From assembly GCA_002348605.1 (NCBI GenBank), contig DEBQ01000006.1, positions 78,715 through 142,714 on the forward strand: a stretch of 64,000 bases of DNA, in the 5' to 3' direction. The notes beneath the pieces were generated by a model, which saw nothing but the letters and a program-made list of their open reading frames with translations, did not search any database and had not been told where the DNA came from. Of this stretch, positions 8,884 through 63,404 are shown piece by piece. The DNA comes from Candidatus Saccharibacteria bacterium UBA2952 (GTDB taxonomy: Bacteria; Patescibacteriota; Saccharimonadia; Saccharimonadales; Saccharimonadaceae). Within the stretch, counting starts at the first letter, position 1. Each line of letters begins with the position of its first letter. Both the position numbers and the translations under genes were made by a program.

Positions 8884-8960
8884 TGGTAGCAGCGGCTGGG
8901 ATTGAACCAGCGACCTTAGGCTTATGAGTCCTACGCTCTAACCAACTGAGCTACGCTGCC
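8884..8960 (-). tRNA. tRNA with CAU anticodon (elongator Met or lysidine-modified Ile2), CCA encoded
   Basis: Cloverleaf GGCAGCG-TA-GCTC..GAGC-..CTCATAA..-GCTGGTTCAATCCCAGC-CGCTGCT-A-CCA. The T-arm resembles E. coli tRNA-Ile2 as I recall it. G1-U72 and A31-G39 are irregular. Confidence 0.85.
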
Positions 8961-13990: not shown

Positions 13991-14068
13991 TGGTTGCGGG
14001 GAGAGGATTTGAACCTCTGACCTCGTGGTTATGAGCCACGCGAGCTGACCAGACTGCTCCACCCCGCG
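13991..14068 (-). tRNA. Initiator tRNA-fMet (CAU), CCA encoded
   Basis: 5' CGCGGGGTGGAGCAG.. and 3' ..CCCCGCAACCA give a C1-A72 mismatch. Near-identical ends to E. coli tRNA-fMet. Only two (29-41, 30-40) of the usual three consecutive G-C pairs next to the anticodon loop are kept. Confidence 0.9.
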
Positions 14069-14617: not shown

Positions 14618-14693
14618 GGGGGTGTAGCTCAGGGGTTAGAGCAGCGGGCTCATAACCTGTTGGTCGATGGTTCGATCCCATCCACCCCCACCA
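14618..14693 (+). tRNA. tRNA with CAU anticodon (elongator Met or Ile2), CCA encoded
   Basis: GGGGGTG-TA-GCTC-AGGGGTTA-GAGC-A-GCGGG-CTCATAA-CCTGT-TGGTC-GATGG-TTCGATC-CCATC-CACCCCC-A-CCA. Confidence 0.9.
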
Positions 14694-45309: not shown

Positions 45310-45338
45310 TTGACTTTTTATACATTTTGTAGTATAAT
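45310..45338 (+). promoter_or_regulatory. Perfect consensus promoter TTGACT-N17-TATAAT
   Basis: TTGACT 45310-45315 and TATAAT 45333-45338 in an AT-rich stretch immediately upstream of the GC-rich gene. Confidence 0.75.
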
Positions 45339-45381
45339 TATATATTGTAGGTAATTGTCCTTCTCACTCTTAGGAGTTTCG

Positions 45382-45765
45382 TTGCACAAGCTGCAAGAGC
45401 TTCGCGAAGACGCCGGTTTCACCGTCGCCGAGCTTGCTGAGTACACCGGCCTGTCCACCTCGACCATTTATGGCATCGAGAATGGCACGTCCGAGTTCAA
45501 AACGCATGTCGGTGTCGCGCAGATCCTGGCCGAAACGTTCGACTGCGACGTGAACGACATCTTCACATCCGAGGAGCTGTCGCACCGCGGTCGGCCGCCG
45601 CTCACCGGCAAGCCGATTGGTCACGTCACCAGCATGCTCGAAGTCAGCGTCACGAAGAACGGTCAGACTGAGACCTTCCGGCTCTTCCACGAGCTTGAAG
45701 GTAGCGCCTGCGAGCGCTGTCACATCGTCATGCCGCTCACAGGCAAGTGCCCGTTCTGTGACTAA
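45382..45765 (+). CDS. XRE-family HTH regulator with C-terminal CxxC..CxxC zinc-ribbon-like tail
   Basis: TVAELAEYTGLSTSTIYGIENG HTH; C-terminal ACERCH..GKCPFC. TTG start 5 nt after GGAG; strongly G/C-ending codons. Confidence 0.7.
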   Translation: MHKLQELREDAGFTVAELAEYTGLSTSTIYGIENGTSEFKTHVGVAQILAETFDCDVNDIFTSEELSHRGRPPLTGKPIGHVTSMLEVSVTKNGQTETFRLFHELEGSACERCHIVMPLTGKCPFCD

Positions 45766-45795
45766 CCTACTACCCCCGAAAGGAGTTTTCAACCT

Positions 45796-45818
45796 GAGAA
45801 CCCCTTCGGGGGTTTCTC
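45796..45818. terminator. Bidirectional stem-loop terminator between convergent genes
   Basis: GAGAACCCC-TTCG-GGGGTTTCTC followed by ATTT. Confidence 0.75.
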
Positions 45819-45820
45819 AT

Positions 45821-46603
45821 TTAAGCTTCTCGCCGAAGCGCCTCTTGCCCTGCGGTGGCTGCCTCGCTGACGAGCGTAGAATATACGGTCTGACTTAGTT
45901 CCTTTGGGTTGTTGGCAAAATGCTGCATAAGCGGCGAACGCTCATCGGCAAACTGTGCCATCGTTGGGCGTACGCCCAACGCATCAGTCAGATCAAGCGC
46001 TGCCTCGTACTCGGTATGGGCTGCTTGCATGGCAGCTTCTTGCATCTCTACTCTATCCATCCTCATGTTAGCTACGTTATGTTTAATGACGGCCAATGTA
46101 ACCGCGCTGGTAGCGAGTGCCCGGCCTAATTGAATGTCTTTTCGGGCGATCATATTCGGACTTCGGTCTTTAAATACCATTTCCTCGACGACACTTGCCA
46201 GTTCCGCGGTTCGCGACAAGTCAATCTTGGCTTTTTCAATTAGATTTTCTGGGCTTAGGCGTTCGTCCGTTTCAGGGTCTATCATAATAGGCAGTTTTGC
46301 ACGCCTGAACATTACTTCGTCACCAAAATGCTGCGCATAGGTATGGTATGCGCTGCCCATCCCCGTGACGGCAAGTAGTGATGCGGCTTCTTCAATGTCG
46401 CTGTCACTTCCAGCGTCTGCGATATGCCTGAATGTTCGTTCGGCAGTCGCCGTGCCCACCTTTTGTAACCATGGAATCACAACCCCTTGCCTACCTTTAA
46501 ACATGGCTAGGCGTTCGTTGTCCCGGGTCGGTGCTGGAACATAATCCAGACCCTCGGCTGTTTGTACGGTGTTAAATACATATTCTCTTCGCTCTCTACT
46601 CAT
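45821..46603 (-). CDS. Hypothetical protein
   Basis: 260 aa, helical-looking; TATAGT 7 nt upstream of the ATG; no motif recognised. Confidence 0.6.
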   Translation of the reverse strand: MSRERREYVFNTVQTAEGLDYVPAPTRDNERLAMFKGRQGVVIPWLQKVGTATAERTFRHIADAGSDSDIEEAASLLAVTGMGSAYHTYAQHFGDEVMFRRAKLPIMIDPETDERLSPENLIEKAKIDLSRTAELASVVEEMVFKDRSPNMIARKDIQLGRALATSAVTLAVIKHNVANMRMDRVEMQEAAMQAAHTEYEAALDLTDALGVRPTMAQFADERSPLMQHFANNPKELSQTVYSTLVSEAATAGQEALRREA

Positions 46604-48558: not shown

Positions 48559-48585
48559 TTAGCACTCTTGACATGAGAGTGCTAA
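48559..48585 (+). promoter_or_regulatory. CIRCE operator (HrcA binding site) overlapping the hsp20 promoter
   Basis: Perfect TTAGCACTC-N9-GAGTGCTAA. The N9 spacer contains TTGACA (48568-48573), and TATAAT at 48592-48597 lies 18 nt downstream. Confidence 0.85.
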
Positions 48586-48652
48586 TTTTTCTATAATTAT
48601 AAATAGAAAAGGTTTACCCTTTTCGCTAACAATCAAATGAAAGGAGGTTACT

Positions 48653-49075
48653 ATGAGTAACTTAATCAAGTTTGATCCGTTTGCGGAAATCCAAGCCTTA
48701 CAGAAGCAATTCTTCTCGGACGATTGGTTTTCGCCGATCAAAACAATGCAAATGCCAACTACAGATGTATACACATCTAAGGACGACAAAGAGCTTACCG
48801 TCGAAGCTCACCTGCCAAACTTCGACCAAAAAGACGTCAATATAAGTATCGACAAAGGCAATCTTGTCATCCGCGCCGAGCGTCACGAGCAAGAAAAAGA
48901 CAAGGACAAAAAGTACATCGTACGCGAAAGCTCTTCAAGCTTCTACCGCAGCATTCGCCTGCCCGAAGCCGCCGACGAAAACTCAATAAAGGCCAAAATG
49001 AAAGATGGCGTACTTAAGGTGACTGTGCAATTCAAAGAGTTGCCGAAGCCGAAGCAAATCGCGATTGAAGCGTAA
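48653..49075 (+). CDS. Hsp20/alpha-crystallin small heat-shock protein
   Basis: 140 aa; alpha-crystallin domain with the C-terminal GVLKVTV motif; AAAGGAGG SD. Confidence 0.9.
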   Translation: MSNLIKFDPFAEIQALQKQFFSDDWFSPIKTMQMPTTDVYTSKDDKELTVEAHLPNFDQKDVNISIDKGNLVIRAERHEQEKDKDKKYIVRESSSSFYRSIRLPEAADENSIKAKMKDGVLKVTVQFKELPKPKQIAIEA

Positions 49076-49122: not shown

Positions 49123-49524
49123 TTACCGAAAAAAGAATTTATCAATAAGAAGGTAAATGTTTGTTAAGGCTAAGAAAAGAACGACTGTTATTACTTCCCA
49201 TTGGTCTTTTACATACACCCATCCGAATCTCTGAATATACTCATCTTCATCGCGTAGGTCACCACCTCGAACATTGTTTAACCCGCGCTCTTTCATCAGT
49301 AATCGAGTTACCTTATTCTCGTATTTTTCAGCATGCTCTTTGCTGATAATTCCCAAATCTTCGGTAAGTTCAATTTCAATAGGCTTATGCCGCATCGTCC
49401 AGTAGGCTCCACGTTTTTTGAGCAAATGTTCTTGAAATCTTTCTTCAGGCGTTTTTGATGTTATGCCAACATAACACTTGCCGTGTTCAAGCTTTAAAAT
49501 ATATAGCCACCACCTCATATTCAT
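49123..49524 (-). CDS. GIY-YIG domain protein with C-terminal hydrophobic helix
   Basis: 133 aa; WWLYILKLEHGKCYVGITSKTPEERFQEH matches the GIY..YIG core; later RGG and an Asn; C-terminal TVVLFLALTNIYLLI. Confidence 0.65.
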   Translation of the reverse strand: MNMRWWLYILKLEHGKCYVGITSKTPEERFQEHLLKKRGAYWTMRHKPIEIELTEDLGIISKEHAEKYENKVTRLLMKERGLNNVRGGDLRDEDEYIQRFGWVYVKDQWEVITVVLFLALTNIYLLIDKFFFR

Positions 49525-49543
49525 TTCTCGCTCTCTATTTATC

Positions 49544-51397
49544 TTATCGTTGCATGCGTTTAAGGTATTTCAGTGTTTCCGGGTTAGTGCAATATATATA
49601 GCAACCTTTCATGCCACGTGTCATTAACACCTTATATATATTGCGCACCAAACGATTAAGTTCCTTCGGGTTGTCTTTCAGCCCTTTCTTCCCAACCTTA
49701 TCGTAATACTTCGAATAGTCTGTATAGAATGTCGATGTTTGGTCATTATACCCAAGGTCATCACCAATTATTACTCCAACGTAGTCAAATTCTAAACCTT
49801 GCGAAGTGTGAATACATCCAACCTGGTTGACCCCCTCAGAATCTATCGCCCATGTAGAGCCAACCTTACGCGAATTCCAGGGCATTGCGAATTCGTATTC
49901 GGGAACAAGTACATCGCTGACTTGCGCGTCAGCATTTCCCTCTTTTTGAGATGTCCACTCCCATGCATAGCCTGCTAAGATACGCGCACTATGACCCTCT
50001 GCATCTTTGCGCTTGATGGCTTTACGCATTTCATTTGGGTCATCAAAGATCTTGAATTCAAAGTCGCCGTCTTCCCAGCCGTCGTAATTGGCTGTTTCGC
50101 GTAGCTGCAATATGTCATCAAGCCAGTTCACGTAGCCTTCTGCTCCTGAACAACGGAATTGGGCAGACAGTTCCATTTCATGGACATCTGCGCCATAAAG
50201 ATTTGCGTAGTATTTGATTTCTTGTACCGAGCCAACGTCGTCAGGCCGGACCATTTGATTATCATCAATAAAAAAGATGGTTGTACGCGCAGCTTTGACG
50301 ACGTCATCAACCTGGTTGAGACCCTGATACATATAAGCGCCGCGCTGCTTGAGTCGGTGCGCCTCGTCCACAATAAGCGCATCGAATTCGTTTGGATTAC
50401 TTTCAACAAAGTTCGATGAGCCCATGAAAAGATTCTTTAGTCGCATGAGAGGCATAGTACCCGCTAGTTTTTTTACGAGTGTTTCGCGAAATGATGCATT
50501 TGGGGCAACGAAGACGGCATTTAGCTCATCGTTAAGGAGCGAATTGAGCAGGTTCAGTGATACGACCGATTTGCCTGTGCCCGGACCGCCTTTGATGATG
50601 ACGACTGACTTGCCTGTCTTTGTATGATTAGCGATGTAGCGAGCTCGCTCGAATGCGACCTTTTGCGCATCGAGAAGTCTATATTCCTCATTGCCTTCGA
50701 ACATTCCCGAGACGTAGTCGACAAGCTTTTTTGACGGTTTGATTTTGCCCGACTCAATCTCATAGAGAATGTCCATACCCTTACCGTATTTGACATATTT
50801 TTTCAGAAATTCTTCAAGCTTTTGTTGGTCGTCGCGCAGAAATAGCGGAGAGCGCTCGACGAGCTGCGCGTAGCGAGAATCCTTAAGTGGCTCGGGTTGC
50901 TTCTCGACATAATTGTGAAGATAAGCGCAAGAGTAAGCAGCTACAGAATCGTTCGCTACGTTTTCGTTGAAATCAGAAATAAAGTCTTTATAGCTTAATG
51001 CTTGATAGCTGGGGTGTGGGACGATGCGGTTTGCACCACCTGTAAACGTCTCGACGACAAGCTCATCACCATCAGCTGCGAGCGCTTCAGACCATTGCTT
51101 CAATTCGACTATGATGAAGTTCTTACCTCCTTGCTCATCCTCGCCAGATACAATGAAATCTACCCGGTAATTCGTGAGAGGGATTTTGTACTCAATCATG
51201 ATGCCGCAATCGTCCGCGATTTCTGCACGCCGGACTACGCGCTCCATCTGAGGTAAAGAATTGGTATACGCACCACGTTCGGCTGGTGGAATTCCTCGTC
51301 CTAGCTTCGAACGAAAAGCTGCTTCAATAGCAGGCAGGATTTTACCTGCATCTACAGTGTCTCGAAATTCTTTTGCCGTAGATTGATAAATTATCAC
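49544..51397 (-). CDS. DUF2075-type P-loop NTPase (SF1 helicase-like) with N-terminal PD-(D/E)xK-like module
   Basis: 617 aa; N-terminal YRVDFIV..IIVELKQW; Walker A GGPGTGKS; Walker B LIVDEAHRL; C-terminal HTSQGLEFDYVGVI and MTRGMKG. Confidence 0.75.
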   Translation of the reverse strand: MIIYQSTAKEFRDTVDAGKILPAIEAAFRSKLGRGIPPAERGAYTNSLPQMERVVRRAEIADDCGIMIEYKIPLTNYRVDFIVSGEDEQGGKNFIIVELKQWSEALAADGDELVVETFTGGANRIVPHPSYQALSYKDFISDFNENVANDSVAAYSCAYLHNYVEKQPEPLKDSRYAQLVERSPLFLRDDQQKLEEFLKKYVKYGKGMDILYEIESGKIKPSKKLVDYVSGMFEGNEEYRLLDAQKVAFERARYIANHTKTGKSVVIIKGGPGTGKSVVSLNLLNSLLNDELNAVFVAPNASFRETLVKKLAGTMPLMRLKNLFMGSSNFVESNPNEFDALIVDEAHRLKQRGAYMYQGLNQVDDVVKAARTTIFFIDDNQMVRPDDVGSVQEIKYYANLYGADVHEMELSAQFRCSGAEGYVNWLDDILQLRETANYDGWEDGDFEFKIFDDPNEMRKAIKRKDAEGHSARILAGYAWEWTSQKEGNADAQVSDVLVPEYEFAMPWNSRKVGSTWAIDSEGVNQVGCIHTSQGLEFDYVGVIIGDDLGYNDQTSTFYTDYSKYYDKVGKKGLKDNPKELNRLVRNIYKVLMTRGMKGCYIYCTNPETLKYLKRMQR

Positions 51398-55114: not shown

Positions 55115-55255
55115 TCTTCATATTATTTGTCCTTTCGTTACTTGCTATACATAACTATGGACTTTGGCCGCTTAAGAAGCAGTGAAGACTTTTTCACCAA
55201 CTAGTTTGAATACTTCCATGTTTACTTATTTGTTAAAATATTATATAATAAAAGT

Positions 55256-55738
55256 ATGAATACCATAGAGCGTCTTCGAATAAATCCCGAAGACCCCTCC
55301 ATACAGCAGATGCTTGCTAGGCAGGCGATGGAAGCGATACGCGCTGAAGTGTATATCAACTACTTACACGCTGTCGACCAGTACCATGGCGGCTGCGATA
55401 CCAATCATCCAGCTGCTATTGAATTGCAAAACGAAAAAAGTGCTTTTGCCCGCTCAGAATATCCTCTAATTCCATATTTTTGGCTACTACACAACGATGA
55501 CGGGTCGATATTCCAGGAAATGCTTGAGCTTAATAAGATAGACCCGAACACCGCCGAGCATCCACTCATTACCCATCGCACCCACCTGAATGGTCTGCAC
55601 ATAACAGACGGCAAGTTACTCGTAGCTATTTTTAACAACACGTCAGAAGAAGTATGGCGTAATGCTCACTTCACCCACAAACAATCCAGCCTATTGTTCG
55701 GACACGCCCGTGAGATTGAAGCCATAGCCAGAGACTAA
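55256..55738 (+). CDS. Hypothetical protein
   Basis: 160 aa; ATG 6 nt after TATAAT; 3' end overlaps the convergent kinase gene by 48 nt. Confidence 0.5.
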   Translation: MNTIERLRINPEDPSIQQMLARQAMEAIRAEVYINYLHAVDQYHGGCDTNHPAAIELQNEKSAFARSEYPLIPYFWLLHNDDGSIFQEMLELNKIDPNTAEHPLITHRTHLNGLHITDGKLLVAIFNNTSEEVWRNAHFTHKQSSLLFGHAREIEAIARD

Positions 55739-56641
55739 CTTCTCAAGGTAATCTTGGATGTATATATGCGAATCCGAGCCGAAGCCAGCGGTCAGCAGCT
55801 TGCCGTGCAAGTCTAGCCAGCCTCTGATAATTATCATATCTCTTAGAGTGCTCGACTCAAGCGCCGAGAGTGAACGCTCCTTCTTATAGTCTGCTAAATA
55901 TTTTTCCGCTTCACCAATACCTGTTGACGTAAAAATATCCCACAATGTTCCAGCTAAGCAAAATATATATGGTGCCGTCGCCACGTCTTCGAAGTCGATC
56001 ACTGCGGCTACGTTATCATCGGAAACAAGAACATTACTGCGTGTAATATCATGGTGTGAAACACCTGACGGAAGGTAAGGCCAAGCACCGACAACGTTTC
56101 GCAGGTGAACCGCAACGACCTCGGATATATCACTGAGGCCCGTATGAACAGAGGGGTTAATTGGAAAATACTTGTAGTCGTTAGTGAGATTGATAGCACT
56201 GTTGGTCGTTACCCCACTAGTGTCCATATTATGTAAACGGGCCTGATAACGAGCAAGCTCGCTCACCCATGCACCTCGATATACGTCCGGATGATGACCG
56301 TCAACCTTATTCATCGAAACCACATACCACTCGTAACCTTGGGCTAGGTGCCTAAATACTTGATGGTTACTTTCCGAAGCGTCTAGGCTCGGAAGTGGTA
56401 TAGAGCATTCTTCAGCCACCCCCATAATCGTTAATTCAAGCGAGATACGTGCCAATTCGTGGTTTCGGTTATAGTGCTTCTGCACCTTTTCGCTCCCATC
56501 AGACAAAGAAACAGAAATGACTGTGTTTTCGATACCGCCGGGAAGTTCGTGCCAAGTTGAGACATCATAATTGAAGAATTGGCCTACCTTCGCGACAAGT
56601 TCGTCACTGATAACCGATTGTGACTCAGCGCTCAGCTTCAT
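55691..56641 (-). CDS. APH/choline-kinase family phosphotransferase
   Basis: 316 aa; catalytic loop SHHDITRSNVLV and the metal-binding IDFED. Confidence 0.75.
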   Translation of the reverse strand: MKLSAESQSVISDELVAKVGQFFNYDVSTWHELPGGIENTVISVSLSDGSEKVQKHYNRNHELARISLELTIMGVAEECSIPLPSLDASESNHQVFRHLAQGYEWYVVSMNKVDGHHPDVYRGAWVSELARYQARLHNMDTSGVTTNSAINLTNDYKYFPINPSVHTGLSDISEVVAVHLRNVVGAWPYLPSGVSHHDITRSNVLVSDDNVAAVIDFEDVATAPYIFCLAGTLWDIFTSTGIGEAEKYLADYKKERSLSALESSTLRDMIIIRGWLDLHGKLLTAGFGSDSHIYIQDYLEKLVSGYGFNLTGVSEQ

Positions 56642-56644
56642 ATA

Positions 56645-57175
56645 CTAGAGGGGCTTGTAGCCGAACCGCTCTAAATCAGGTTCGATATCTGAATAAGACT
56701 TACCTGCTAGATTTCCGCCTGCTATGAAATCCTCGGTTGTAACATCTGCCAGGCAACTTTCTGGCGGATTAAATGCATCTTTTTCTTCCGGTGTATCGAA
56801 TTCAAAGTCGATTAAGACAAGTCCAGCTAAAACACCTTTGAAGACATCAACTTCAGCAGTACGTCCAGCGAGCGGAACCACGTAGCGATCTTTTTCGATA
56901 CGCTTCTGACTTGCAACAGCCAGTGCTTCAAACTCATCCTTCTCCAGGGTTATTGAGTGTTCAGTATGAACCGAGGCATCCTCGCCCTCGACTGGAAGTT
57001 TCTTTGTGATTTGATGCTGATCGCCGTTGCGACGCAGGCGAAGCCTTGAGTGAACAAGGGGGTCTTCTGGAACATAAATATCCAACATTGATGTCGAAGG
57101 TGTGGTTTCAGGGTCAAATGGAATTTTTGAAGCAAGGTAAGTTAATTCAAGTTCCATTTCTTGATTTGCAGCCAT
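56645..57175 (-). CDS. CYTH domain protein
   Basis: N-terminal ELELTYL (ExExK-like, Lys replaced by Thr), RLRLRR, and a C-terminal LIDFEF acidic strand. AAAGGAG SD fits the ATG at 57175. Confidence 0.65.
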   Translation of the reverse strand: MAANQEMELELTYLASKIPFDPETTPSTSMLDIYVPEDPLVHSRLRLRRNGDQHQITKKLPVEGEDASVHTEHSITLEKDEFEALAVASQKRIEKDRYVVPLAGRTAEVDVFKGVLAGLVLIDFEFDTPEEKDAFNPPESCLADVTTEDFIAGGNLAGKSYSDIEPDLERFGYKPL

Positions 57176-57242
57176 ATGATACACTCTCCTTTACATCAAT
57201 AATAATTAATAATATAATATCATACTATTAACATATAATCAA

Positions 57243-58298
57243 ATGAGGCACATGCACCAATTACGCACTATTGTTATAGGGTTAGGAAAGCAAAGTACAG
57301 AGGACCACCTTCCCGCGCTCGGTGAAAGTGAAATGTTCGATCTTAAGGCTGTGGTCGATGTCAATGAACCGATCGCCGAGCAGATTGGAAAACGATATAA
57401 TGTCCCCCACTATACGACAGTCGATGCAGCCCTAAAACATCACGAAAAAGAACTCGATCTTGCAATAATTGCAGTGCCGCATGATGAATATTTGCCAATC
57501 ATTCGTAAGGTCGCAGTACTAGGTATCGATGTCGTCAAGGAAAAACCTTTCGCTACTTCTGTAGATGAAGCGAATGAGCTAAGAAAGCTTTCCAAGCAGC
57601 ATGGCATCATGATTTATGTAACTTTGCAGCGTCGGTTTAACCCGATATTTCTTACATTTAAGCAGTTAGTAAAACGAATCGGGAAAATATATTCCATCGA
57701 AGCGCGCTACACCATGAATATTGGACGATTAGATGAAGGGTGGCGAGCAAAAAAAGAAGTTGCTCATGGCGGCGCACTCATGGATATGGGATACCACTTA
57801 ATAGACCTCCTGGTATGGTATTTTGGCTTGCCTGATACTGTTACATGTCGGTTCTCAAGCGGAAACCGAGAGAATCAAGCATACGACGTAGAAGACACCG
57901 CTCTGATGAATTTTGTTTATAATGATCTTGGTAACGATAATGATCGTGTGCTTGGGAATGCGCTGATATCACGAGTCTACCCTGAAAAAGATGAATCTCT
58001 GGTTGTTTATGGCTCTCGAGGTAGTGTTCGTGTCGAACGAGGACGTGTTAGTCGCCGTGCTATCAGTGGAGAAGAAATTGAAATACTGGAACGTCAAGGT
58101 GCATGGCCATCTGCAGCAATTGACCAGTTAGAGGAATTCGGCAGCCGGATTTTACGCAAACGTAACGGCGATCCAAGTGAAGCAATCGAACACTACGAAC
58201 AAATGGCGCTAGTGCAAGCTGCGTACGACTCAAACCGCGACCACGACACAAAAAACCCGAAAGAATATTTAGAAAGGATGATGCCGAGTGAAAAATAG
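57243..58298 (+). CDS. Gfo/Idh/MocA family NAD(P)-dependent oxidoreductase
   Basis: 351 aa; N-terminal Rossmann fold (IGLGKQS), EKP motif (VVKEKPFA) and a C-terminal alpha/beta domain. Confidence 0.85.
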   Translation: MRHMHQLRTIVIGLGKQSTEDHLPALGESEMFDLKAVVDVNEPIAEQIGKRYNVPHYTTVDAALKHHEKELDLAIIAVPHDEYLPIIRKVAVLGIDVVKEKPFATSVDEANELRKLSKQHGIMIYVTLQRRFNPIFLTFKQLVKRIGKIYSIEARYTMNIGRLDEGWRAKKEVAHGGALMDMGYHLIDLLVWYFGLPDTVTCRFSSGNRENQAYDVEDTALMNFVYNDLGNDNDRVLGNALISRVYPEKDESLVVYGSRGSVRVERGRVSRRAISGEEIEILERQGAWPSAAIDQLEEFGSRILRKRNGDPSEAIEHYEQMALVQAAYDSNRDHDTKNPKEYLERMMPSEK

Positions 58299-59550
58299 TT
58301 TGGCAATACACGGTGGTGAACCAGTACTGACCGAAGGGGGAACATTCGATTGGCCAATTCTTGATAAAGAATCTGAAAAAGCGATACTTGATCAATTGCA
58401 CACATCGATTTCAATTTACGATCGCTCAGGTGTAATCGAAGAATTCGAAGATAAGTTCAAAAACTATCATTCCAGACAATATGGCCTATTGTCCAACTCG
58501 GGGACTTCGGCGATCTTTTCAATGTTTGAGGCTATAAATCTGATTCCTGGCGATGAAGTCGTATGCCCTGTATATACATTCCATGCATCAGTCAGCCCTA
58601 TGATGTACACTGGTGCAATTCCCGTGTTTGCAGACTGTGATGATGAAGGCAATGTCTCGCTTGAATCGATTACAGCAAAGCTTACAGACAAGACAAAAGC
58701 GGTTGTCGTCACGCACATGTGGGGAGTGCCTGCTCGTGATATAGCTAAGATCCGCGAGCTATGTGACGAGCGAGGTCTTTGGCTACTAGAAGACTGTTCG
58801 CATGCTCACGGTGCAAGCATCGATGGAAAAAAGGTCGGATCGTTTGGTCACGCAGCAAGTTGGAGCTTACAAGGACAGAAGATTATTACAGGTGGCGAGG
58901 GCGGCATTATGCTTACCGACGACAGAAAACTGTACCAACGCGCACTTTTACAAGGTCATTACAACAAGCGTCCAAAGCAAGAACTAGATCAAGATGATGA
59001 ACTGCATGAATTTTATCTTACAGGAATGGGCCTTAAGTTACGTGCACACCCAATCGCTACTGCGCTTGCTCTACAGCAATTTAATCATCTTGATGAGTTT
59101 ATTGCGCAAAAGCAGAAGTTTGCGGAACGGCTGAATCAAGAACTTAAAGATATACCTTTTCTTCATCTACCTACTATGTCTAAATCCACACAACATAGCT
59201 GGTACGCATATAACCTTATGTATAATCGTGAAGCAGCGTTCGGCGTAAGTCGTGAAGAATTTGTCGATGCTCTCCTGGCAGAGGGACTCAAAGAAGCCGA
59301 TATTCCGGGCTCGACTGGATTAATAAACAATCTCCCATTATTCACAAACCCTCAAAAAATTCTTCCACGCATGTACACCTCTTCCTTGCCTGCTCAGATG
59401 GATTTTCCTGGTGCTGATTCAATTTACAATGGGATTATAAAGTTTCCGGTGTGGGTTCGTGCAGAAGATGAAGACATCGTTGAGTCATATATAGCCGGCA
59501 TCCGTAAAGTATCACAATATCTATTAAGCAATCACACCCTTAACGCCTAA
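58288..59550 (+). CDS. DegT/DnrJ/EryC1/StrS family PLP-dependent aminotransferase
   Basis: 420 aa; GTSAI, VVVTHMWG and the SLQGQKIITGGEGG Lys region; GTG start overlapping the preceding gene. Confidence 0.85.
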   Translation: MKNSLAIHGGEPVLTEGGTFDWPILDKESEKAILDQLHTSISIYDRSGVIEEFEDKFKNYHSRQYGLLSNSGTSAIFSMFEAINLIPGDEVVCPVYTFHASVSPMMYTGAIPVFADCDDEGNVSLESITAKLTDKTKAVVVTHMWGVPARDIAKIRELCDERGLWLLEDCSHAHGASIDGKKVGSFGHAASWSLQGQKIITGGEGGIMLTDDRKLYQRALLQGHYNKRPKQELDQDDELHEFYLTGMGLKLRAHPIATALALQQFNHLDEFIAQKQKFAERLNQELKDIPFLHLPTMSKSTQHSWYAYNLMYNREAAFGVSREEFVDALLAEGLKEADIPGSTGLINNLPLFTNPQKILPRMYTSSLPAQMDFPGADSIYNGIIKFPVWVRAEDEDIVESYIAGIRKVSQYLLSNHTLNA

Positions 59551-59551
59551 T

Positions 59552-60061
59552 ATGATGTCCCATCCAGATAGCGAAGCACCTGCCGTTGGTCAGCAAGTAA
59601 TAACTGCGTGTGCGTTTATTCATCAGCGCGTCGATGGAATTCCTAAAGTCTTTATGGCACGACGCTCTATGAACAAAAAGTTTCTCCCTGGAGTGTATGA
59701 ACTACCAGGAGGACATGTGGAATTTGGCGAAGATCCAATTGTCGGTCTAAAGCGCGAGGTCCGCGAGGAACTGGCACTGGATATAAACGTCGGCGACCCG
59801 TTCGCTGCATTTACCTACACGAACGAATTGAAAGGCTCGCACTCGATTGAGGTTATCTATTTTGCCACTCTTCCAAATGATACTAACGATATAATTCTTA
59901 ATTTACAGGATCACAGTGAATATGGATGGTTTGCCGAAGACGAGCTTGCTAGTGCCACGACACTAGATAAGAGTCTAGAAGACGACGAGTTCACTGCGAT
60001 CAAGACAGGTTTCAGAATTCTAGCTGGCAGATACGATGTCGCCGAAACAGAATCTGAATAA
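59552..60061 (+). CDS. NUDIX hydrolase
   Basis: Canonical Nudix box GGHVEFGEDPIVGLKREVREELAL. Confidence 0.85.
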   Translation: MMSHPDSEAPAVGQQVITACAFIHQRVDGIPKVFMARRSMNKKFLPGVYELPGGHVEFGEDPIVGLKREVREELALDINVGDPFAAFTYTNELKGSHSIEVIYFATLPNDTNDIILNLQDHSEYGWFAEDELASATTLDKSLEDDEFTAIKTGFRILAGRYDVAETESE

Positions 60062-60083
60062 TCTTGTCCTGACGTGTGTAATA

Positions 60084-60112
60084 TTGACAACTTAGCATAA
60101 ATAGAATATAAT
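60084..60112 (+). promoter_or_regulatory. Perfect consensus promoter TTGACA-N17-TATAAT
   Basis: TTGACA 60084-60089 and TATAAT 60107-60112, AT-rich, immediately upstream of the GC-rich two-gene cassette. Confidence 0.75.
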
Positions 60113-60197
60113 AATATATAGGAAGGCGTGAAAGCGCCTTTTGTTCTTCCCTATGAGCGGCTAAATGGCCGTCCCCGGACTTCGAGAGGAGAAAGCT

Positions 60198-60398
60198 ATG
60201 CCAACGGACGGCTGCGGAACGCCTGCGAACCCGTTCGCCTGCGCCAACCTGCACCTGCCCTACTACGGGAGCGGCAAGGATGGCTGGCACGTGAGTCTCG
60301 GGTGGTTGACCGACCGCCCGATTGTGACCCTGCTGGTCCTAGCGATCGTGCTGACGATCGCGAAGTCGGTGACCCAGTACAAGATTGAAGGGAGATGA
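60198..60398 (+). CDS. Small single-pass membrane protein, high-GC codon usage
   Basis: 66 aa from ATG 60198 with a GAGGAG SD; third codon positions are almost all G/C in this frame; TM IVTLLVLAIVLTIA. Confidence 0.6.
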   Translation: MPTDGCGTPANPFACANLHLPYYGSGKDGWHVSLGWLTDRPIVTLLVLAIVLTIAKSVTQYKIEGR

Positions 60399-60404
60399 CG
60401 GCAC

Positions 60405-60662
60405 ATGCTGTCGATGGAAACCTGCAGAATGCCCGATGGAACTCGGGTGGTGTACGACCAGTCGTGTGCCAGCATGGACTTGTCCGAGTACCACTGGTAT
60501 ACCGAGCCTTGGCACTTGGTCACGCAGGCCTTGGCCGACACCTGGCACGCTGTGGTATTCCTGCTGAGCGACCCGTTCGCCTGGCTCATCACGTTCATGG
60601 CCACCGCCATCCTGTTCGGCTACATCAAGATCAGGAACGCCATGGACAGCACACCGAGGTGA
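60405..60662 (+). CDS. Small membrane protein, high-GC codon usage
   Basis: 85 aa with a GAAGGGAG SD; high GC3 in this frame only; hydrophobic C-terminal half. Confidence 0.6.
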   Translation: MLSMETCRMPDGTRVVYDQSCASMDLSEYHWYTEPWHLVTQALADTWHAVVFLLSDPFAWLITFMATAILFGYIKIRNAMDSTPR

Positions 60663-60685
60663 CTCGAACAAGCCTGTGACTCAAG

Positions 60686-60719
60686 GGAAGAGACCCCGCC
60701 TAACCAGCGGGGTCTTTCC
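60686..60719. terminator. Bidirectional stem-loop terminator
   Basis: AGACCCCGC-CTAACCA-GCGGGGTCT flanked by GGAAG/CTTTCC and followed by ATTT. Confidence 0.75.
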
Positions 60720-60724
60720 ATTTA

Positions 60725-61642
60725 TTAGCGTTTTCGTAAAAAATACATGCCGAGCGTGGCCGACGCCAGCAAGCTGACTCCGATGATAAGCCAGAATGTA
60801 AGCGGCGAGTCAGAACCCGGCGGCAGCGTGACGTTCATACCAAACAATCCGGCAACCATGGTTGGAATAGTAAGCGCCAACGTAATGACAGTAAGTAGTC
60901 GGATTGTTTCGTTTAGGCGCGTGTCCATAACGGCACGGTAGCTGTCACGCAAGTTAGTAATGGTACGAAGCAAAGATTTACAGCGGGCAATTAACTGCTC
61001 GAAGTCGATTGAAAGGTCTTCGACTAAATCCCGGTCGTCTTCGGTGAGTTTGAGCATGCGGCCACCAAGCAGCTTTTCAGTGGCAGTGTTGGTAGGAATA
61101 AGCGCGTCTAAGTAGTCGTTAAGTTTGCGTTCGTATTCGGTAAGTGTGGCAATGTCACGGGCACGCAATGTGCGGACGTCGGACGTGGCGGCGCGCATTT
61201 GGCGGTTTATGGTTGCGACGCGGCGCTGGTACTGCACGGTAATTGCTTCCATCATGAGCATAAATAAACGCGTACGTTCTGCCGTTGGTACATTCGCCGA
61301 GTCGATGAACGGTTGCCATAAACGGCCCAACGAATCACGACTAACCGTGAACAAATGCTCGCCTGAAATAGCGAACAAAATGGGTGTCGTAAAGTCGTTA
61401 AAGTCGTCGTCGGTGTCAGGCAGGCGCGTAATAAAGTAGGTCCAGCCATCTTCAAGTTCGACGCGCGGGACTTCGTGTGGGTCGAGCGCGTCGTTCAAAA
61501 TGTTTTCGTCGACGCCAAGGTTAATAAGGGCCGTTTTTTCGTCGTCACTCGGGCGTTCGGAACGCACCCATGTGCCCGCTAGCAGGTTCTCTTTTTGCTC
61601 GATAATCAGGTTTGAAGCCGTGGCGCGGAGGTATTGCAGCAT
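60725..61642 (-). CDS. CorA-family divalent cation transporter (second copy)
   Basis: 305 aa with two C-terminal TM segments and GLFGMNV (GMN motif). Confidence 0.8.
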   Translation of the reverse strand: MLQYLRATASNLIIEQKENLLAGTWVRSERPSDDEKTALINLGVDENILNDALDPHEVPRVELEDGWTYFITRLPDTDDDFNDFTTPILFAISGEHLFTVSRDSLGRLWQPFIDSANVPTAERTRLFMLMMEAITVQYQRRVATINRQMRAATSDVRTLRARDIATLTEYERKLNDYLDALIPTNTATEKLLGGRMLKLTEDDRDLVEDLSIDFEQLIARCKSLLRTITNLRDSYRAVMDTRLNETIRLLTVITLALTIPTMVAGLFGMNVTLPPGSDSPLTFWLIIGVSLLASATLGMYFLRKR

Positions 61643-61661: not shown

Positions 61662-62672
61662 CTACGCAGGAATGGTCAGCGAGAAAGTCGAGCCCTTGCC
61701 TACTTTGCTAGTAAGAGCAAGGTCGTACCCGTGTCGGTCGGCGATTGATTTTGCGATAGAAAGCCCCAGTCCACTACCTTCGGCGTGGCGCGACGAACGG
61801 GATTCGTCGACGCGGAAGAAACGGTCGAACACATTAGTGTGGTGTTCGGGCGCGATACCTACGCCTTCGTCGGCGACCGAAATAGTGAAACCATGGCTGG
61901 TCGCAACCGACATCGTGACCGTTGAGTGTTCCGGTGAATATTTAATTGCATTGTCGAGCAGTATACGTAAAATCTGCGTAACGGCCGACTGGTTTGCCAT
62001 GACACTCGCAGCCGGAATGTCGTGACCAATGGTTATATGTTTGCTTTCGGCCAATGGCGCGAGCGTTTGCACGACGTCCAATACAACTTCGGCTACGTTT
62101 AGCTTAGCCTTAGACCTTTCGGCGTTCGCCTGGCTAGCCAACCCAAGTAGTGCGTCGGATAGCGTATGCAGCTTAACTGTTTCGGCTAGATTATGACCGA
62201 TCAGGTCTTTCGCTTCAGCAAGTGTCAGTTTTTTCTTACGAAGAGCGACTTCGTTGGTAACCTGAAGCGCTGTCAGCGGCGTGCGAAGTTCATGCGAGGC
62301 ATCGGACACGAACCGACTTTGTGATTCCATGGCGGTTTCGATAGGCTCAAGGGTCTTTCGGGCCAAGTAGTAACTGAAGAACGCTCCGCCAATGAGCACG
62401 GCGAGGTTCATGACAACGAGTGACACTAGAAGATCAGCCCGGGCCTGGTCGGCTCGATCGTTGAATAATTCCTGTACTCCGCTCCGAATCGAATCGTTCA
62501 TGTAGTACATACCGCCTATTTGGGTGCGCGGAGGTAGCGGACGGTCAAACCGCGCCGAACTAATGCTATATATGACAGCCGAAAAAACAATCGTCAAACC
62601 AAAAATAATTGCCAGGTAGGTTGCAGCTAACCGGCCGGTGTCGCCTTTTAGGTGTTTCATAATGTCGTCCAT
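61662..62672 (-). CDS. Two-component sensor histidine kinase
   Basis: 2 TM segments, H-box SDASHELRTPLTAL, G-boxes; 4 nt downstream of the response regulator. Confidence 0.85.
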   Translation of the reverse strand: MDDIMKHLKGDTGRLAATYLAIIFGLTIVFSAVIYSISSARFDRPLPPRTQIGGMYYMNDSIRSGVQELFNDRADQARADLLVSLVVMNLAVLIGGAFFSYYLARKTLEPIETAMESQSRFVSDASHELRTPLTALQVTNEVALRKKKLTLAEAKDLIGHNLAETVKLHTLSDALLGLASQANAERSKAKLNVAEVVLDVVQTLAPLAESKHITIGHDIPAASVMANQSAVTQILRILLDNAIKYSPEHSTVTMSVATSHGFTISVADEGVGIAPEHHTNVFDRFFRVDESRSSRHAEGSGLGLSIAKSIADRHGYDLALTSKVGKGSTFSLTIPA

Positions 62673-62676
62673 GTGC

Positions 62677-63354
62677 CTAACCTTCCGCGCTTAACTTGTA
62701 GCCGAACCCGCGCACCGTGTGAAGGAGCGGTTTTTTAAACGGCTTGTCAATTTTGGCCCGCAGGAAAGTTATAAAGACTTCGACGTTGTTCGGCAACACG
62801 TCAGCATCGAAATCCCAGACATGCGAAATAATGCTGTCTTTGGACAGCACACGGCCAGGGTTACGCATGAAGTATTCCAAAATGGCGAATTCTTTTGACG
62901 TCAGCCGAATGTCTTTGCCGCCTCGTTCGACCTGTTTTTTGGCCGGGTCGAGCATAAGGTCGCCGACGTTCAGCGTTTCGCCTAAAGATTGGTGCGGCCG
63001 GCGAAGCAGCGCCCGAATACGCGCCAGCAATACGTCAAAGCTGAATGGTTTAGCCAGGTAATCATCGGCGCCAGTGTCGAGTCCTTTTACGATGTCACGC
63101 TCTTGGTCTTTGGCCGTCAGCATAAGAATTGGCGTGTGGTTACCGTCACCGCGCAGTTTGTCGGCGACTTCGTAGCCGTTTAGACCCGGCATCATGACGT
63201 CGAGGATGATGAGGTCGTAGTCGCTTGACGCCGAAGCGGCATTGTAACCACTTTCGCCGTCGTGCTCGACATCTACCGCGTAACCCTCCTCTTCAAGTCC
63301 CTCGCGGATACCCTGAGCGATACGGTGTTCATCTTCGACGACAAGTATTTTCAT
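62677..63354 (-). CDS. OmpR/PhoB-family response regulator
   Basis: MKILVVEDE receiver with the phospho-acceptor DLIILDVMMPG and a C-terminal winged helix (RGFGYKL); GAAGG SD before ATG 63354. Confidence 0.9.
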   Translation of the reverse strand: MKILVVEDEHRIAQGIREGLEEEGYAVDVEHDGESGYNAASASSDYDLIILDVMMPGLNGYEVADKLRGDGNHTPILMLTAKDQERDIVKGLDTGADDYLAKPFSFDVLLARIRALLRRPHQSLGETLNVGDLMLDPAKKQVERGGKDIRLTSKEFAILEYFMRNPGRVLSKDSIISHVWDFDADVLPNNVEVFITFLRAKIDKPFKKPLLHTVRGFGYKLSAEG

Positions 63355-63404
63355 AGCTACCTTCAAGTATAGGTGTTGTAGCTTAATTTTACCTTAAATA
63401 TAAG

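What the first reader, a model, noticed from the sequence alone, without database searches (positions are those of the whole stretch)
60084..60719. Second GC-rich cassette: two tiny membrane proteins under a perfect TTGACA-N17-TATAAT promoter
- Two tandem ORFs of 66 and 85 aa have about 60%+ GC.
- Third codon positions are almost all G/C in one frame only, which singles these two out from the many overlapping ORFs in the track.
- Each has a good SD and predicted TM helices. The first also has a Cys/Gly/Pro-rich N-terminal segment.
- The cassette begins with an AT-rich textbook promoter plus a small AAGGCG-TGAAAG-CGCCTT hairpin in the leader.
- It ends with a strong terminator whose 3' flank (GGGGTCTTTCCATTTA) resembles that of the first cassette (GGGGTTTCTCATTTA).
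- This gives two compositionally foreign, self-contained expression cassettes about 14.3 kb apart.
- Small membrane-protein pairs of this kind could be holin-like, toxin/immunity or entry-exclusion functions, possibly derived from a high-GC (actinobacterial) host or its phages. All of that is inference.
Basis: partly seen in the sequence, partly recalled or inferred. Interest (0 to 1): 0.65.

Follow-up and report, generated by a model that had tools for sequence, protein, structure and literature searches.

The report
GC-rich two-gene small membrane operon
This is a real, conserved two-gene operon for two tiny single-pass membrane proteins, found only in a narrow group of Saccharibacteria; it has unusually G/C-ending codons and an almost invariant control region, but no actinobacterial or phage source could be found and its function is still unknown.

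Summary
A 12/12 TTGACA-N17-TATAAT promoter sits at 60084-60112. It is followed by an ~80-nt leader, ORF A (60198-60398, 66 aa), ORF B (60405-60662, 85 aa) and an 11-bp-stem terminator (60689-60717), which faces convergent corA.

GC3 is 0.84 and 0.86, against 0.55±0.06 for the window's long ORFs. Only this cassette and the HTH cassette at 45.3-45.8 kb show that bias.

The + frame is the only frame open in five lineages, with dN/dS about 0.3, so both ORFs are coding. Each protein has an acidic N-terminal domain with two conserved Cys, one C-terminal TM helix and a basic tail.

The operon lies next to corA in at least five related ~0.83-Mb Saccharibacteria genomes. All of them keep the high GC3.

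Promoter plus leader is far more conserved than neutral sites (20/125 against 102/142 variable, p≈8e-21).

No homologue turned up outside this clade. An exhaustive HMM search of 1.84 billion proteins with ORF B found only its own family. Phage, plasmid and viral-contig collections and Pfam, PHROGs, PADLOC, NCBIfam and PDB gave nothing.

The "foreign cassette" description is partly right. An actinobacterial or phage donor is unsupported, and recent transfer is contradicted. Function remains inferred: a strongly transcribed, leader-gated, fast-evolving envelope protein pair.

The parts
60075..60112 (+). Conserved promoter block: -35 TTGACA at 60084-60089, 17-nt spacer, -10 TATAAT at 60107-60112. 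Conservation among lineages starts at about 60075.
   Evidence: 12/12 consensus match. Nearly invariant in 5 lineages.
60119..60197 (+). 5' leader of about 80 nt; the transcription start near 60119 is inferred. It contains hairpin 1 (60121-60142, 9 pairs, GNRA loop), a pyrimidine tract UUCUUCCCU (60144-60152), hairpin 2 (about 60157-60172) and the SD GAGAGGAGAA (60184-60193).
   Evidence: Promoter plus leader has 20/125 variable columns, against 102/142 variable four-fold sites in corA (Fisher p = 8e-21). Consensus fold. SD about 2/3 paired in the ensemble. No Rfam family matches.
60198..60398 (+). ORF A, 66 aa. N-terminal domain DGCGTPxNPxxCANLxLPYYGSGxxGWH with 2 invariant Cys; one TM helix (residues 41-59, nt 60318-60374); basic tail.
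   Evidence: Only frame open in all 5 lineages, mean dN/dS 0.31. Alignment. Hydropathy. AF2 helix 41-64. GC3 0.84.
60405..60662 (+). ORF B, 85 aa. N-terminal domain MLSMETCxxPDGTxxYDxxCASMxxxxYHWxxEP with 2 invariant Cys; amphipathic helix; one TM helix (residues 58-76, nt 60576-60632); basic tail. Its SD, GGGAG, overlaps the end of ORF A.
   Evidence: dN/dS 0.26-0.30 among type-1 alleles. Alignment. Hydropathy. AF2 helices 35-55 and 57-81. GC3 0.86.
60689..60717 (+). Intrinsic terminator (11-bp stem, 7-nt loop, T-rich tail) lying between the operon and convergent corA.
   Evidence: Relatives keep a G+C-rich stem-loop with a T-tail although the stem sequence differs.
60725..61642 (-). Convergent corA (Mg2+/Co2+ channel family). 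It is the constant neighbour of the operon in every locus recovered.
   Evidence: Pfam CorA, 9e-41. Synteny.
45310..45823 (+). Companion cassette (context only): 11/12 promoter, a 127-aa XRE-type HTH with an RGRP motif and a C-terminal CxxC...CxxC, then a terminator. It is the only other GC3 outlier in the window.
   Evidence: Syntenic copy in L006 with GC3 0.79.

Best explanation
This is an autonomous bicistronic operon in a Saccharibacteria chromosome.

Proposed steps:
1. A consensus sigma-70-type promoter drives strong transcription.
2. The transcript starts with a stable GNRA-capped hairpin at its 5' end. It carries an almost invariant ~80-nt leader in which the ribosome-binding site of ORF A is mostly base-paired. 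Translation is therefore probably gated, or the mRNA stabilised, by the leader.
3. An intrinsic terminator in the short gap before convergent corA ends the transcript.
4. The products are two clade-specific bitopic membrane proteins. Each has an acidic N-terminal domain of 40-55 residues with two invariant cysteines. The positive-inside rule places this domain outside the cell. A single C-terminal TM helix and a short basic cytoplasmic tail follow.
5. The two proteins most likely act together as an abundant envelope or surface module at the interface with the host, with phages or with the medium.
6. They evolve about ten times less constrained than neighbouring housekeeping genes, and alleles are reshuffled between lineages by recombination.
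7. The G/C-ending codons are not the native expression-linked bias. They reflect either an old acquisition from an unidentified high-GC source that was then put under a native promoter, or active maintenance.

Shown: the anatomy, coding status, conservation, narrow distribution, compositional deviation, constraint on the leader, and mosaic alleles.

Inferred: the transcription start, the gating role of the leader, the membrane topology, interaction between the two proteins, and the envelope-interface function.
For: - Promoter, Shine-Dalgarno sites, hairpin and terminator are present.
- The sense frame is the only one open in five lineages and has the lowest dN/dS, 0.28-0.38. For corA dN/dS is 0.01-0.03.
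- Each protein has one hydrophobic segment, an acidic N-terminal domain and a basic tail. Only the C-terminal helices are confidently modelled.
- Two Cys are invariant in each protein.
- The operon is syntenic next to corA in L001/L005/L014, L002/L013, L003, L004 and L018-L020.
- The control region is much more conserved than neutral sites, p = 8e-21.
- The consensus leader fold has a GNRA hairpin, and loop changes in hairpin 2 leave the stem intact. The SD core is 0.34 unpaired at 37 C.
- All four combinations of ORF A type 1/2 with ORF B type 1/2 occur.
- GC3 is 0.79-0.87 in every lineage.
- Codon choices such as AAG, GAG, GTG, GGG and ATC differ from the preferences of the ATP synthase genes, which favour GAA, AAA, GGT and CGT.
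- Hsp20, which has a 12/12 promoter, has GC3 of only 0.57.
Against: - There are no expression data, and no homologue of known function.
- AlphaFold confidence for the N-terminal domains is below 50, so no fold can be assigned.
- The leader pairs are invariant, so there is no covariation support. The leader alone does not fold better than shuffles, z = -0.5.
- Topology rests only on the positive-inside rule. A tail-anchored, N-in orientation with metal-binding cysteines is not excluded.
- The lower dS of the ORFs relative to corA is only a trend at four-fold sites, p = 0.07.
Confidence: 0.5

Rival explanations
1. One reading: the cassette was acquired from a high-GC actinobacterial host, or from one of its phages or plasmids, and functions as a moron-like accessory gene such as a holin, an immunity protein or an exclusion protein.
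For: - The shift to G/C-ending codons is general across codon families, as mutation bias in a high-GC genome would produce, and is not the native expression-linked pattern.
- Other small GC3-rich genes sit at variable spots in relatives.
- A distant homologue of the cassette-1 HTH lies next to a weak Mu-Gam-like gene with GC3 of 0.96.
- The upstream flank of the cassette is a variable region.
- With cassette dS of only 0.3-0.5 between lineages, an old import with GC3 near 0.95 could still stand near 0.8-0.85 (inference).
Against: - No homologue in any high-GC taxon, phage or plasmid was found in an exhaustive search of 1.84 billion proteins with ORF B, nor in the phage, plasmid and IMG/VR collections for either ORF.
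- GC1 is below the genome mean, and AGA/AGG are used for Arg.
- The cassette occupies the same locus beside corA in at least five lineages, with divergence proportional to the neighbours, so it is not recent.
- There are no flanking repeats or mobility genes.
- HTH homologues at only 42-45% identity in other genomes are still GC3-elevated, which slow amelioration alone cannot explain.
Confidence: 0.25
2. The cassette encodes membrane-damaging small proteins, like a type I toxin or a holin, which are kept silent by the SD-sequestering leader and released under stress.
For: - The proteins are small and hydrophobic.
- A strong promoter is combined with a highly conserved leader that pairs the SD.
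- The distribution is narrow and the sequence evolves rapidly.
Against: - No antisense promoter or antisense RNA is evident.
- No endolysin gene is adjacent; the LysM-CHAP gene lies 8 kb away.
- The conserved part is the 40-55-residue soluble Cys-containing domain, not the TM helix. The TM helix was swapped in type-2 ORF B.
- No PHROG or PADLOC match.
Confidence: 0.12
3. The two proteins are small regulatory membrane proteins that modulate a neighbouring transporter or sensor, in the way MgrB, a 47-aa bitopic protein with two essential periplasmic cysteines, modulates PhoQ. Here the target would be CorA or a histidine kinase.
For: - corA is the invariant neighbour in every locus.
- Histidine kinases lie nearby: an HK-RR pair at 61662-63366 in the window and L003, and a PAS-HK upstream in L001, L002 and the window.
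- The proteins are bitopic with a conserved extracytoplasmic Cys pair.
- The MgrB facts come from general knowledge, not from a test made here.
Against: - The arrangement is convergent, not co-transcribed.
- The HK-RR pair is not a conserved neighbour; L001, L002 and L004 have ATP synthase genes there instead.
- corA is under very strong constraint while ORF A and ORF B evolve fast.
- Adjacency may simply be ancestral.
Confidence: 0.1
4. The region is not protein-coding on the + strand. The GC-rich stretch would instead be a structured RNA or an antisense gene.
For: - The whole transcript folds better than dinucleotide shuffles, z = -4.2 from 20 shuffles.
- Long antisense ORFs exist, and one antisense frame shares the third codon positions.
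Against: - Only the sense frame is open in all lineages; the antisense frames carry stops.
- The coding region folds no better than synonymous-codon shuffles, z = -0.74.
- There are no Rfam hits.
- Start codons and SD sites are conserved.
Confidence: 0.03

Closest known systems
Phage 'morons': autonomous promoter-gene-terminator modules of deviant base composition, first described in lambdoid prophages (general knowledge)
   Same: The unit has its own consensus promoter and its own intrinsic terminator. Its composition differs sharply from its neighbours. Its small membrane-protein products are typical of moron cargo, and it lies next to a variable region.
   Different: It is not inside a prophage, and no phage genes are nearby. 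It has been fixed at one chromosomal locus across at least five diverged lineages. It has no phage homologue. The deviation is towards higher GC and is confined to third codon positions.
Small bitopic regulatory membrane proteins of enterobacteria (MgrB, MgtS, MgtR; general knowledge)
   Same: Size of 47-85 aa, one TM helix, and conserved extracytoplasmic cysteines as in MgrB. A Mg2+ transporter gene and sensor kinases are in the genomic neighbourhood.
   Different: No sequence similarity. The predicted orientation is the opposite one (N-out, C-in). There are two co-transcribed proteins with larger ectodomains. No link to Mg2+ has been shown.
Type I toxin and holin-like small hydrophobic proteins with structured 5' UTRs
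   Same: The proteins are short and contain a TM helix. The leader is conserved and pairs the SD. The taxonomic range is narrow.
   Different: No antisense RNA and no lysis partner. The conserved part is a soluble Cys-containing domain. The proteins are longer than typical type I toxins. No family model matches.
SD-sequestering cis-regulatory leaders (RNA thermometers and riboswitch expression platforms)
   Same: A pyrimidine tract or a local CUUC pairs with the SD. The sequence is invariant across species, and the leader begins with a 5' hairpin.
   Different: No Rfam family matches; the best is the ylbH leader at 15.9 bits against a gathering score of 50. No ligand pocket is evident. There is no covariation. 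The predicted melting between 20 and 45 C is only gradual, 0.23 to 0.43 unpaired.

Membership tests
Horizontally acquired gene from Actinomycetota or their phages/plasmids | Detectable homologues in the proposed donor group | tested here: not met
   The ORF B profile against 1.84 billion representatives returned only its own family. ORF A and ORF B word-index searches of 5.8 billion proteins gave only syntenic Saccharibacteria copies. Phage, plasmid and IMG/VR searches were empty. ORF A was not searched exhaustively.
Horizontally acquired gene from Actinomycetota or their phages/plasmids | Donor-like composition at all codon positions and donor-like codon choice | tested here: inconclusive
   GC3 is 0.84-0.86 and there is a general shift to G/C endings. 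However, GC1 is 0.45-0.55 and AGA/AGG supply 4 of 6 Arg codons. Counts are small.
Horizontally acquired gene from Actinomycetota or their phages/plasmids | Patchy presence or recent insertion relative to close relatives | tested here: not met
   The cassette is present at the same place beside corA in all five lineages recovered, with divergence scaling with the neighbours. There are no flanking repeats.
Phage moron | Own promoter and terminator around a gene of deviant composition | tested here: met
Phage moron | Located within a prophage or phage genome | tested here: not met
   The neighbours are corA, a two-component system, NUDIX and sugar-modification genes. No phage homologues were found.
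Holin or type I toxin | Match to a known holin or toxin family, or an adjacent endolysin or antisense RNA | tested here: not met
   There are no significant Pfam, PHROG, PADLOC or NCBIfam hits; the only hit is phrog_30864 at E = 0.096. No adjacent lysin gene and no convincing antisense promoter.
Holin or type I toxin | Membrane permeabilisation or toxicity on expression | not testable with these tools
   Requires an experiment.
Known cis-regulatory RNA (Rfam) | Score at or above a family's gathering threshold | tested here: not met
   The gathering-threshold search found only three tRNAs in the window. The permissive search of 60060-60740 found nothing near any threshold.
Small bitopic membrane protein (generic class) | A single hydrophobic TM-length segment in a protein under 100 aa, conserved as coding | tested here: met
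   Kyte-Doolittle 19-residue maxima are 2.14 for ORF A and 1.76 for ORF B, and there is no second segment above 1.1. AF2 helices are. dN/dS and open-frame tests are.

The most novel reading that the evidence does not exclude
The operon is one member of a dispersed class of small Saccharibacteria genes whose G/C-ending, actinobacterial-host-like codon usage is actively maintained rather than inherited passively. Other members would be the divergent TM plus coiled-coil gene, the HTH/RGRP/zinc-ribbon regulator of cassette 1 and a Gam-like gene. On this reading the genes keep being exchanged with a hidden high-GC gene pool at the epibiont-host interface. The polymorphic, recombining Cys-containing ectodomains of ORF A and ORF B would serve as host-recognition, kin-recognition or exclusion determinants, and the invariant leader would be a new riboregulator.
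Probability: 0.1. Interest if true: 0.7.

Novelty: new member of a known kind. Interest (0 to 1): 0.35.

Why it matters
Saccharibacteria are obligate epibionts with genomes of roughly 0.8 Mb, so every retained, strongly promoted gene is likely to matter. Surface-exposed, fast-evolving small proteins are plausible players in attachment to the host, in exclusion of competitors or in phage resistance.

The finding adds two protein families with no known relatives. It also adds an unusually conserved leader that could be tested as a regulatory RNA.

The persistent GC3 anomaly in several small genes raises a tractable evolutionary question: is it an old import from a high-GC partner, or is it selection on synonymous sites? 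None of this changes a major paradigm unless the host-interface reading is confirmed.

Tried and rejected
**Family and structure searches**
- Pfam, PHROGs, PADLOC and NCBIfam scans of ORF A and ORF B gave no significant hit.
- PDB profile searches with the ORF B (A1) and ORF A (A2) alignments found nothing.
- AlphaFold2 models were too poor for a fold search, with pLDDT of 65 and 57 and N-terminal domains below 50.
- A test of whether ORF A and ORF B are paralogues gave hhalign probability 1.8%, which is not supported.

**RNA searches**
- Rfam at gathering thresholds and at permissive E-values gave nothing.
- The structured-RNA idea for the GC-rich coding region was rejected. The region folds no better than synonymous-codon shuffles, z = -0.74. 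A first script for this test timed out.

**Searches for other copies or a donor**
- The leader pattern found only UBA2951 among the GTDB species representatives. In metagenome contigs it found only two ~830-kb contigs, one of them the L002 contig and the other apparently the L001/UBA2951-type genome. The leader therefore does not precede other genes elsewhere.
- The leader has no second copy in the window, allowing up to 3 mismatches.
- IMG/VR scans and tblastn of phages and plasmids with ORF A and ORF B were empty. The same was true of the phage collection for the HTH and the Gam-like protein.
- Flanking direct or inverted repeats that might mark mobile-element ends were not found.

**Composition and selection**
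- Translational selection as the cause of high GC3 was rejected on two grounds: codon preferences differ from those of the ATP synthase genes, and Hsp20, under a 12/12 promoter, has GC3 of only 0.57.
- Polarised third-position changes were S>W 9 against W>S 2 in the cassette and 66 against 20 in corA. This does not discriminate between the hypotheses.

**Literature**
- Searches for GC-rich genes in Saccharibacteria and for UBA2951 found nothing relevant.
Full report
**1. What is in the sequence**

The region contains a perfect sigma-70-type promoter: TTGACA at 60084-60089, a 17-nt spacer and TATAAT at 60107-60112. In the whole 64-kb window only five sites reach at least 11/12 matches, against 0.7 expected from shuffles. 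Such promoters are therefore a native and rare feature of this genome.

Downstream of the promoter lie, in order:
- a leader of about 80 nt;
- ORF A (60198-60398, 66 aa), preceded by GAGAGGAG;
- ORF B (60405-60662, 85 aa), preceded by GGGAG;
- an 11-bp-stem terminator (60689-60717), which stands 8 nt from the stop codon of a convergent corA gene (60725-61642; Pfam CorA 9e-41).

**2. Composition**

- The window is 50% GC.
- The long (>=200 aa) ORFs of the window have GC3 of 0.55 +/- 0.056, with a maximum of 0.65.
- ORF A has GC3 of 0.84 and ORF B 0.86.
- Sixty-codon windows with GC3 >= 0.8 occur, apart from one borderline window near 6.1 kb, only here and in the cassette at 45403-45764.

The compositional observation is correct and well beyond chance.

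**3. Are the ORFs genes?**

Close relatives of both proteins exist, but only three clusters each among 5.8 billion proteins. All of them lie in the same genomic position, convergent with corA, in related contigs:
- L001/L005/L014, which is Candidatus Saccharibacteria bacterium UBA2951 and an ~830-kb single contig;
- L002/L013, an 829-kb contig;
- L003;
- L004, which is nearly identical to the window;
- L018-L020.

The evidence for coding is as follows.
- Across five lineages, the annotated + frame is the only one of six frames without stops.
- That frame has the lowest dN/dS, 0.28-0.38.
- The antisense frame that shares third positions has a similar ratio, as expected, but carries stops in every lineage.
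- The 77-aa upstream start of ORF A is thrown out of frame by leader indels in three lineages, so the 66-aa form is the conserved one.

Both ORFs are therefore real genes under purifying selection. That selection is roughly ten times laxer than on corA, where dN/dS is 0.01-0.03.

**4. The proteins**

- Each has a single strong hydrophobic segment near the C-terminus (ORF A residues 41-59, ORF B residues 58-76).
- Each has an acidic N-terminal domain (net charge -1 and -6) and a short basic tail. By the positive-inside rule this predicts an N-out, C-in topology.
- AlphaFold2 is confident only about the C-terminal helices.
- The conserved parts are the N-terminal domains, each with two invariant cysteines. 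ORF A has DGCGTPxNPxxCANLxLPYYGSGxxGWH. ORF B has MLSMETCxxPDGTxxYDxxCASMxxxxYHWxxEP.
- In a second allele type of ORF B (L002, L018, P0018) the membrane-proximal half and the TM helix have been replaced, while the N-terminal domain is kept.
- ORF A also has two TM-region haplotypes. All four combinations of ORF A type with ORF B type occur among the five lineages. This points to recombination inside the operon.
- No Pfam, PHROG, PADLOC, NCBIfam or PDB relative exists.

**5. The control region**

From about 60075 to the ATG, only 20 of 125 alignment columns vary among four independent lineages. In corA, 102 of 142 four-fold degenerate sites vary (Fisher p = 8e-21).

RNAalifold predicts three elements:
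- a 9-pair hairpin at the predicted 5' end, with a GNRA loop that is GAAA in most lineages and GAGA in L003;
- a second hairpin whose loop varies (AAAU, AAAUU, AAACU) and whose stem changes only through G-U wobble;
- pairing of the pyrimidine tract UUCUUCCCU with the SD region.

In the single-sequence ensemble the SD core pairs mostly with a local CUUC. It is about one-third accessible at 37 C.

All of these pairs are invariant, so there is no covariation evidence. The leader alone does not fold better than shuffles, and it matches no Rfam family. It occurs nowhere else in the window. It was not found upstream of other genes in the public collections that were scanned.

My reading is that this is a 5' stabiliser hairpin combined with an SD-sequestering, translation-gating leader. 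That reading is inference.

**6. Origin of the composition**

Three explanations were tested.

(a) Native translational selection. This is not supported.
- The ATP synthase genes of the same genome type prefer C over T at the third position, but also prefer GAA, AAA, GGT/GGC and CGT/CGC.
- The cassettes instead use AAG, GAG, GTG, GGG and ATC.
- Hsp20, which has a 12/12 promoter, has GC3 of 0.57.

(b) A structured RNA. The coding region folds no better than synonymous-codon shuffles, z = -0.74. The low z-score of the whole transcript (-4.2) probably owes much to the terminator and the 5' hairpin; this was not decomposed.

(c) Import from a high-GC donor. There is evidence on both sides.
- In favour: the codon shift is general, as a mutational origin would predict. 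Other small GC3-rich genes sit at variable spots in relatives. One is a divergent 99-129-aa TM plus coiled-coil gene immediately upstream of the pair in L001, L002 and L018. Another is a 61-aa ORF in L002. A Mu-Gam-like gene with GC3 of 0.96 lies next to a homologue of the cassette-1 HTH in L017.
- Against: no donor was found. The exhaustive profile search of 1.84 billion representative proteins with ORF B returned only its own family and three spurious repeat proteins. Phage, plasmid and IMG/VR searches were empty.
- Also against: GC1 is below the genome mean, and AGA/AGG are used for Arg.
- The cassette is not recent. GC3 stays at 0.79-0.87 in all five lineages, whose neighbouring genes differ by dS of 0.5-1.2. 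Synonymous divergence of ORF A and ORF B (0.26-0.53) is about half that of corA, although the four-fold-site comparison is only a trend, p = 0.07.
- Homologues of the cassette-1 HTH at only 42-55% identity, in other genomic contexts, also have raised GC3, 0.69-0.81 against local values of 0.35-0.66. Slow amelioration alone cannot explain that.

The cause of the bias is therefore unresolved. It could be an old import from an unknown source, ongoing exchange with a hidden high-GC pool, or selection on synonymous sites.

**7. Surroundings**

The upstream flank is variable.
- In the window and L004, a low-GC block at about 55.2-60.06 kb ends about 15 bp before the conserved promoter block. It carries APH, a GFO/IDH/MocA oxidoreductase, a DegT aminotransferase and NUDIX.
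- In L001, L002 and L018 the divergent GC3-rich TM plus coiled-coil gene occupies that place.
- Downstream of corA, the window and L003 have a histidine kinase and response regulator pair. L001, L002 and L004 have ATP synthase genes.

Only the promoter-operon-terminator-corA block is constant. No repeats flank it.

**8. Verdict**

This is a self-contained, compositionally deviant expression cassette for two small membrane proteins. The proposed actinobacterial or phage origin has no support, recent transfer is contradicted, and the suggested functions are untested.

The most likely mechanism is a strongly transcribed, leader-gated operon that makes a pair of N-out bitopic envelope proteins, which evolve fast and recombine between lineages. 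This fits a role at the cell surface, but it is inference.

The proteins are new families. The system is not demonstrably a new kind. Interest is moderate to low, 0.35, and rests mainly on the invariant leader and the persistent GC3 anomaly.

Noticed in passing
window 45310-45823 (+); L006 2894-3445; L009, L010, L015, L017: Cassette 1 consists of an 11/12 promoter, a 127-aa XRE-type HTH with a conserved SHRGRPPLTGKPIG motif (AT-hook-like) and a C-terminal CxxC...CxxC, and a terminator. GC3 is about 0.8. It is syntenic in a relative. Homologues at 42-55% identity in other contexts also have raised GC3. In L017 the neighbouring gene is a weak Mu-Gam-like gene with GC3 of 0.96.
   Followed up: partly
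L001 5270-5569 (-), L002 5465-5854 (-), L018 53-352 (-): A third GC3-rich small gene (GC3 0.76-0.87) encodes an N-terminal TM helix plus a coiled coil. Its FtsL resemblance is very weak, E = 0.056. It is transcribed divergently from the ORF A/ORF B promoter region. It is absent from the window and L004, where a low-GC island takes its place.
   Followed up: partly
window about 55200-60061: A low-GC block (0.41-0.48) encodes an APH-family kinase, a GFO/IDH/MocA oxidoreductase (with an 11/12 promoter at 57190), a DegT/EryC1 aminotransferase and a NUDIX hydrolase. It is absent from L001 and L002, so it is probably a variable sugar-modification islet. It ends about 15 bp before the conserved promoter block.
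   Followed up: partly
window 48559-48585 and 48568-49075: A CIRCE-like inverted repeat, TTAGCACTC-N9-GAGTGCTAA, overlaps a 12/12 promoter upstream of an Hsp20 gene (48653-49075). This looks like an HrcA-type heat-shock operator.
   Followed up: no
window 8155 to 7870 (- strand): A 12/12 consensus promoter is followed by about 250 nt without a start codon before an 87-aa ORF and a DinB/IMS-family polymerase gene. No Rfam family matches this stretch. It could be a long leader or an unannotated RNA.
   Followed up: no
window 49123-51397 (-): A low-GC pair (0.39-0.46) encodes a 133-aa GIY-YIG domain protein and a 617-aa Schlafen-group-3/DUF2075-type helicase. This may be a defence or foreign islet.
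   Followed up: no
window 8884-8960 (-), 13991-14068 (-), 14618-14693 (+): Three tRNA-Met (CAT anticodon) genes lie within 6 kb. They are the only tRNAs in the window.
   Followed up: no
L002 2619-2804 (-): A 61-aa Arg/Pro/Trp-rich ORF has high GC at all codon positions (GC1 0.65, GC2 0.55, GC3 0.79). It sits where L001 carries a NUDIX gene and may be another small GC-rich insertion.
   Followed up: no
ORF A/ORF B in window, L001, L002, L003, L018: The alleles are mosaic. The two ORF A TM-region haplotypes and the two ORF B types occur in all four combinations. ORF B type 2 keeps the N-terminal Cys domain but has a different TM helix. This indicates recombination within the operon between lineages.
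   Followed up: partly
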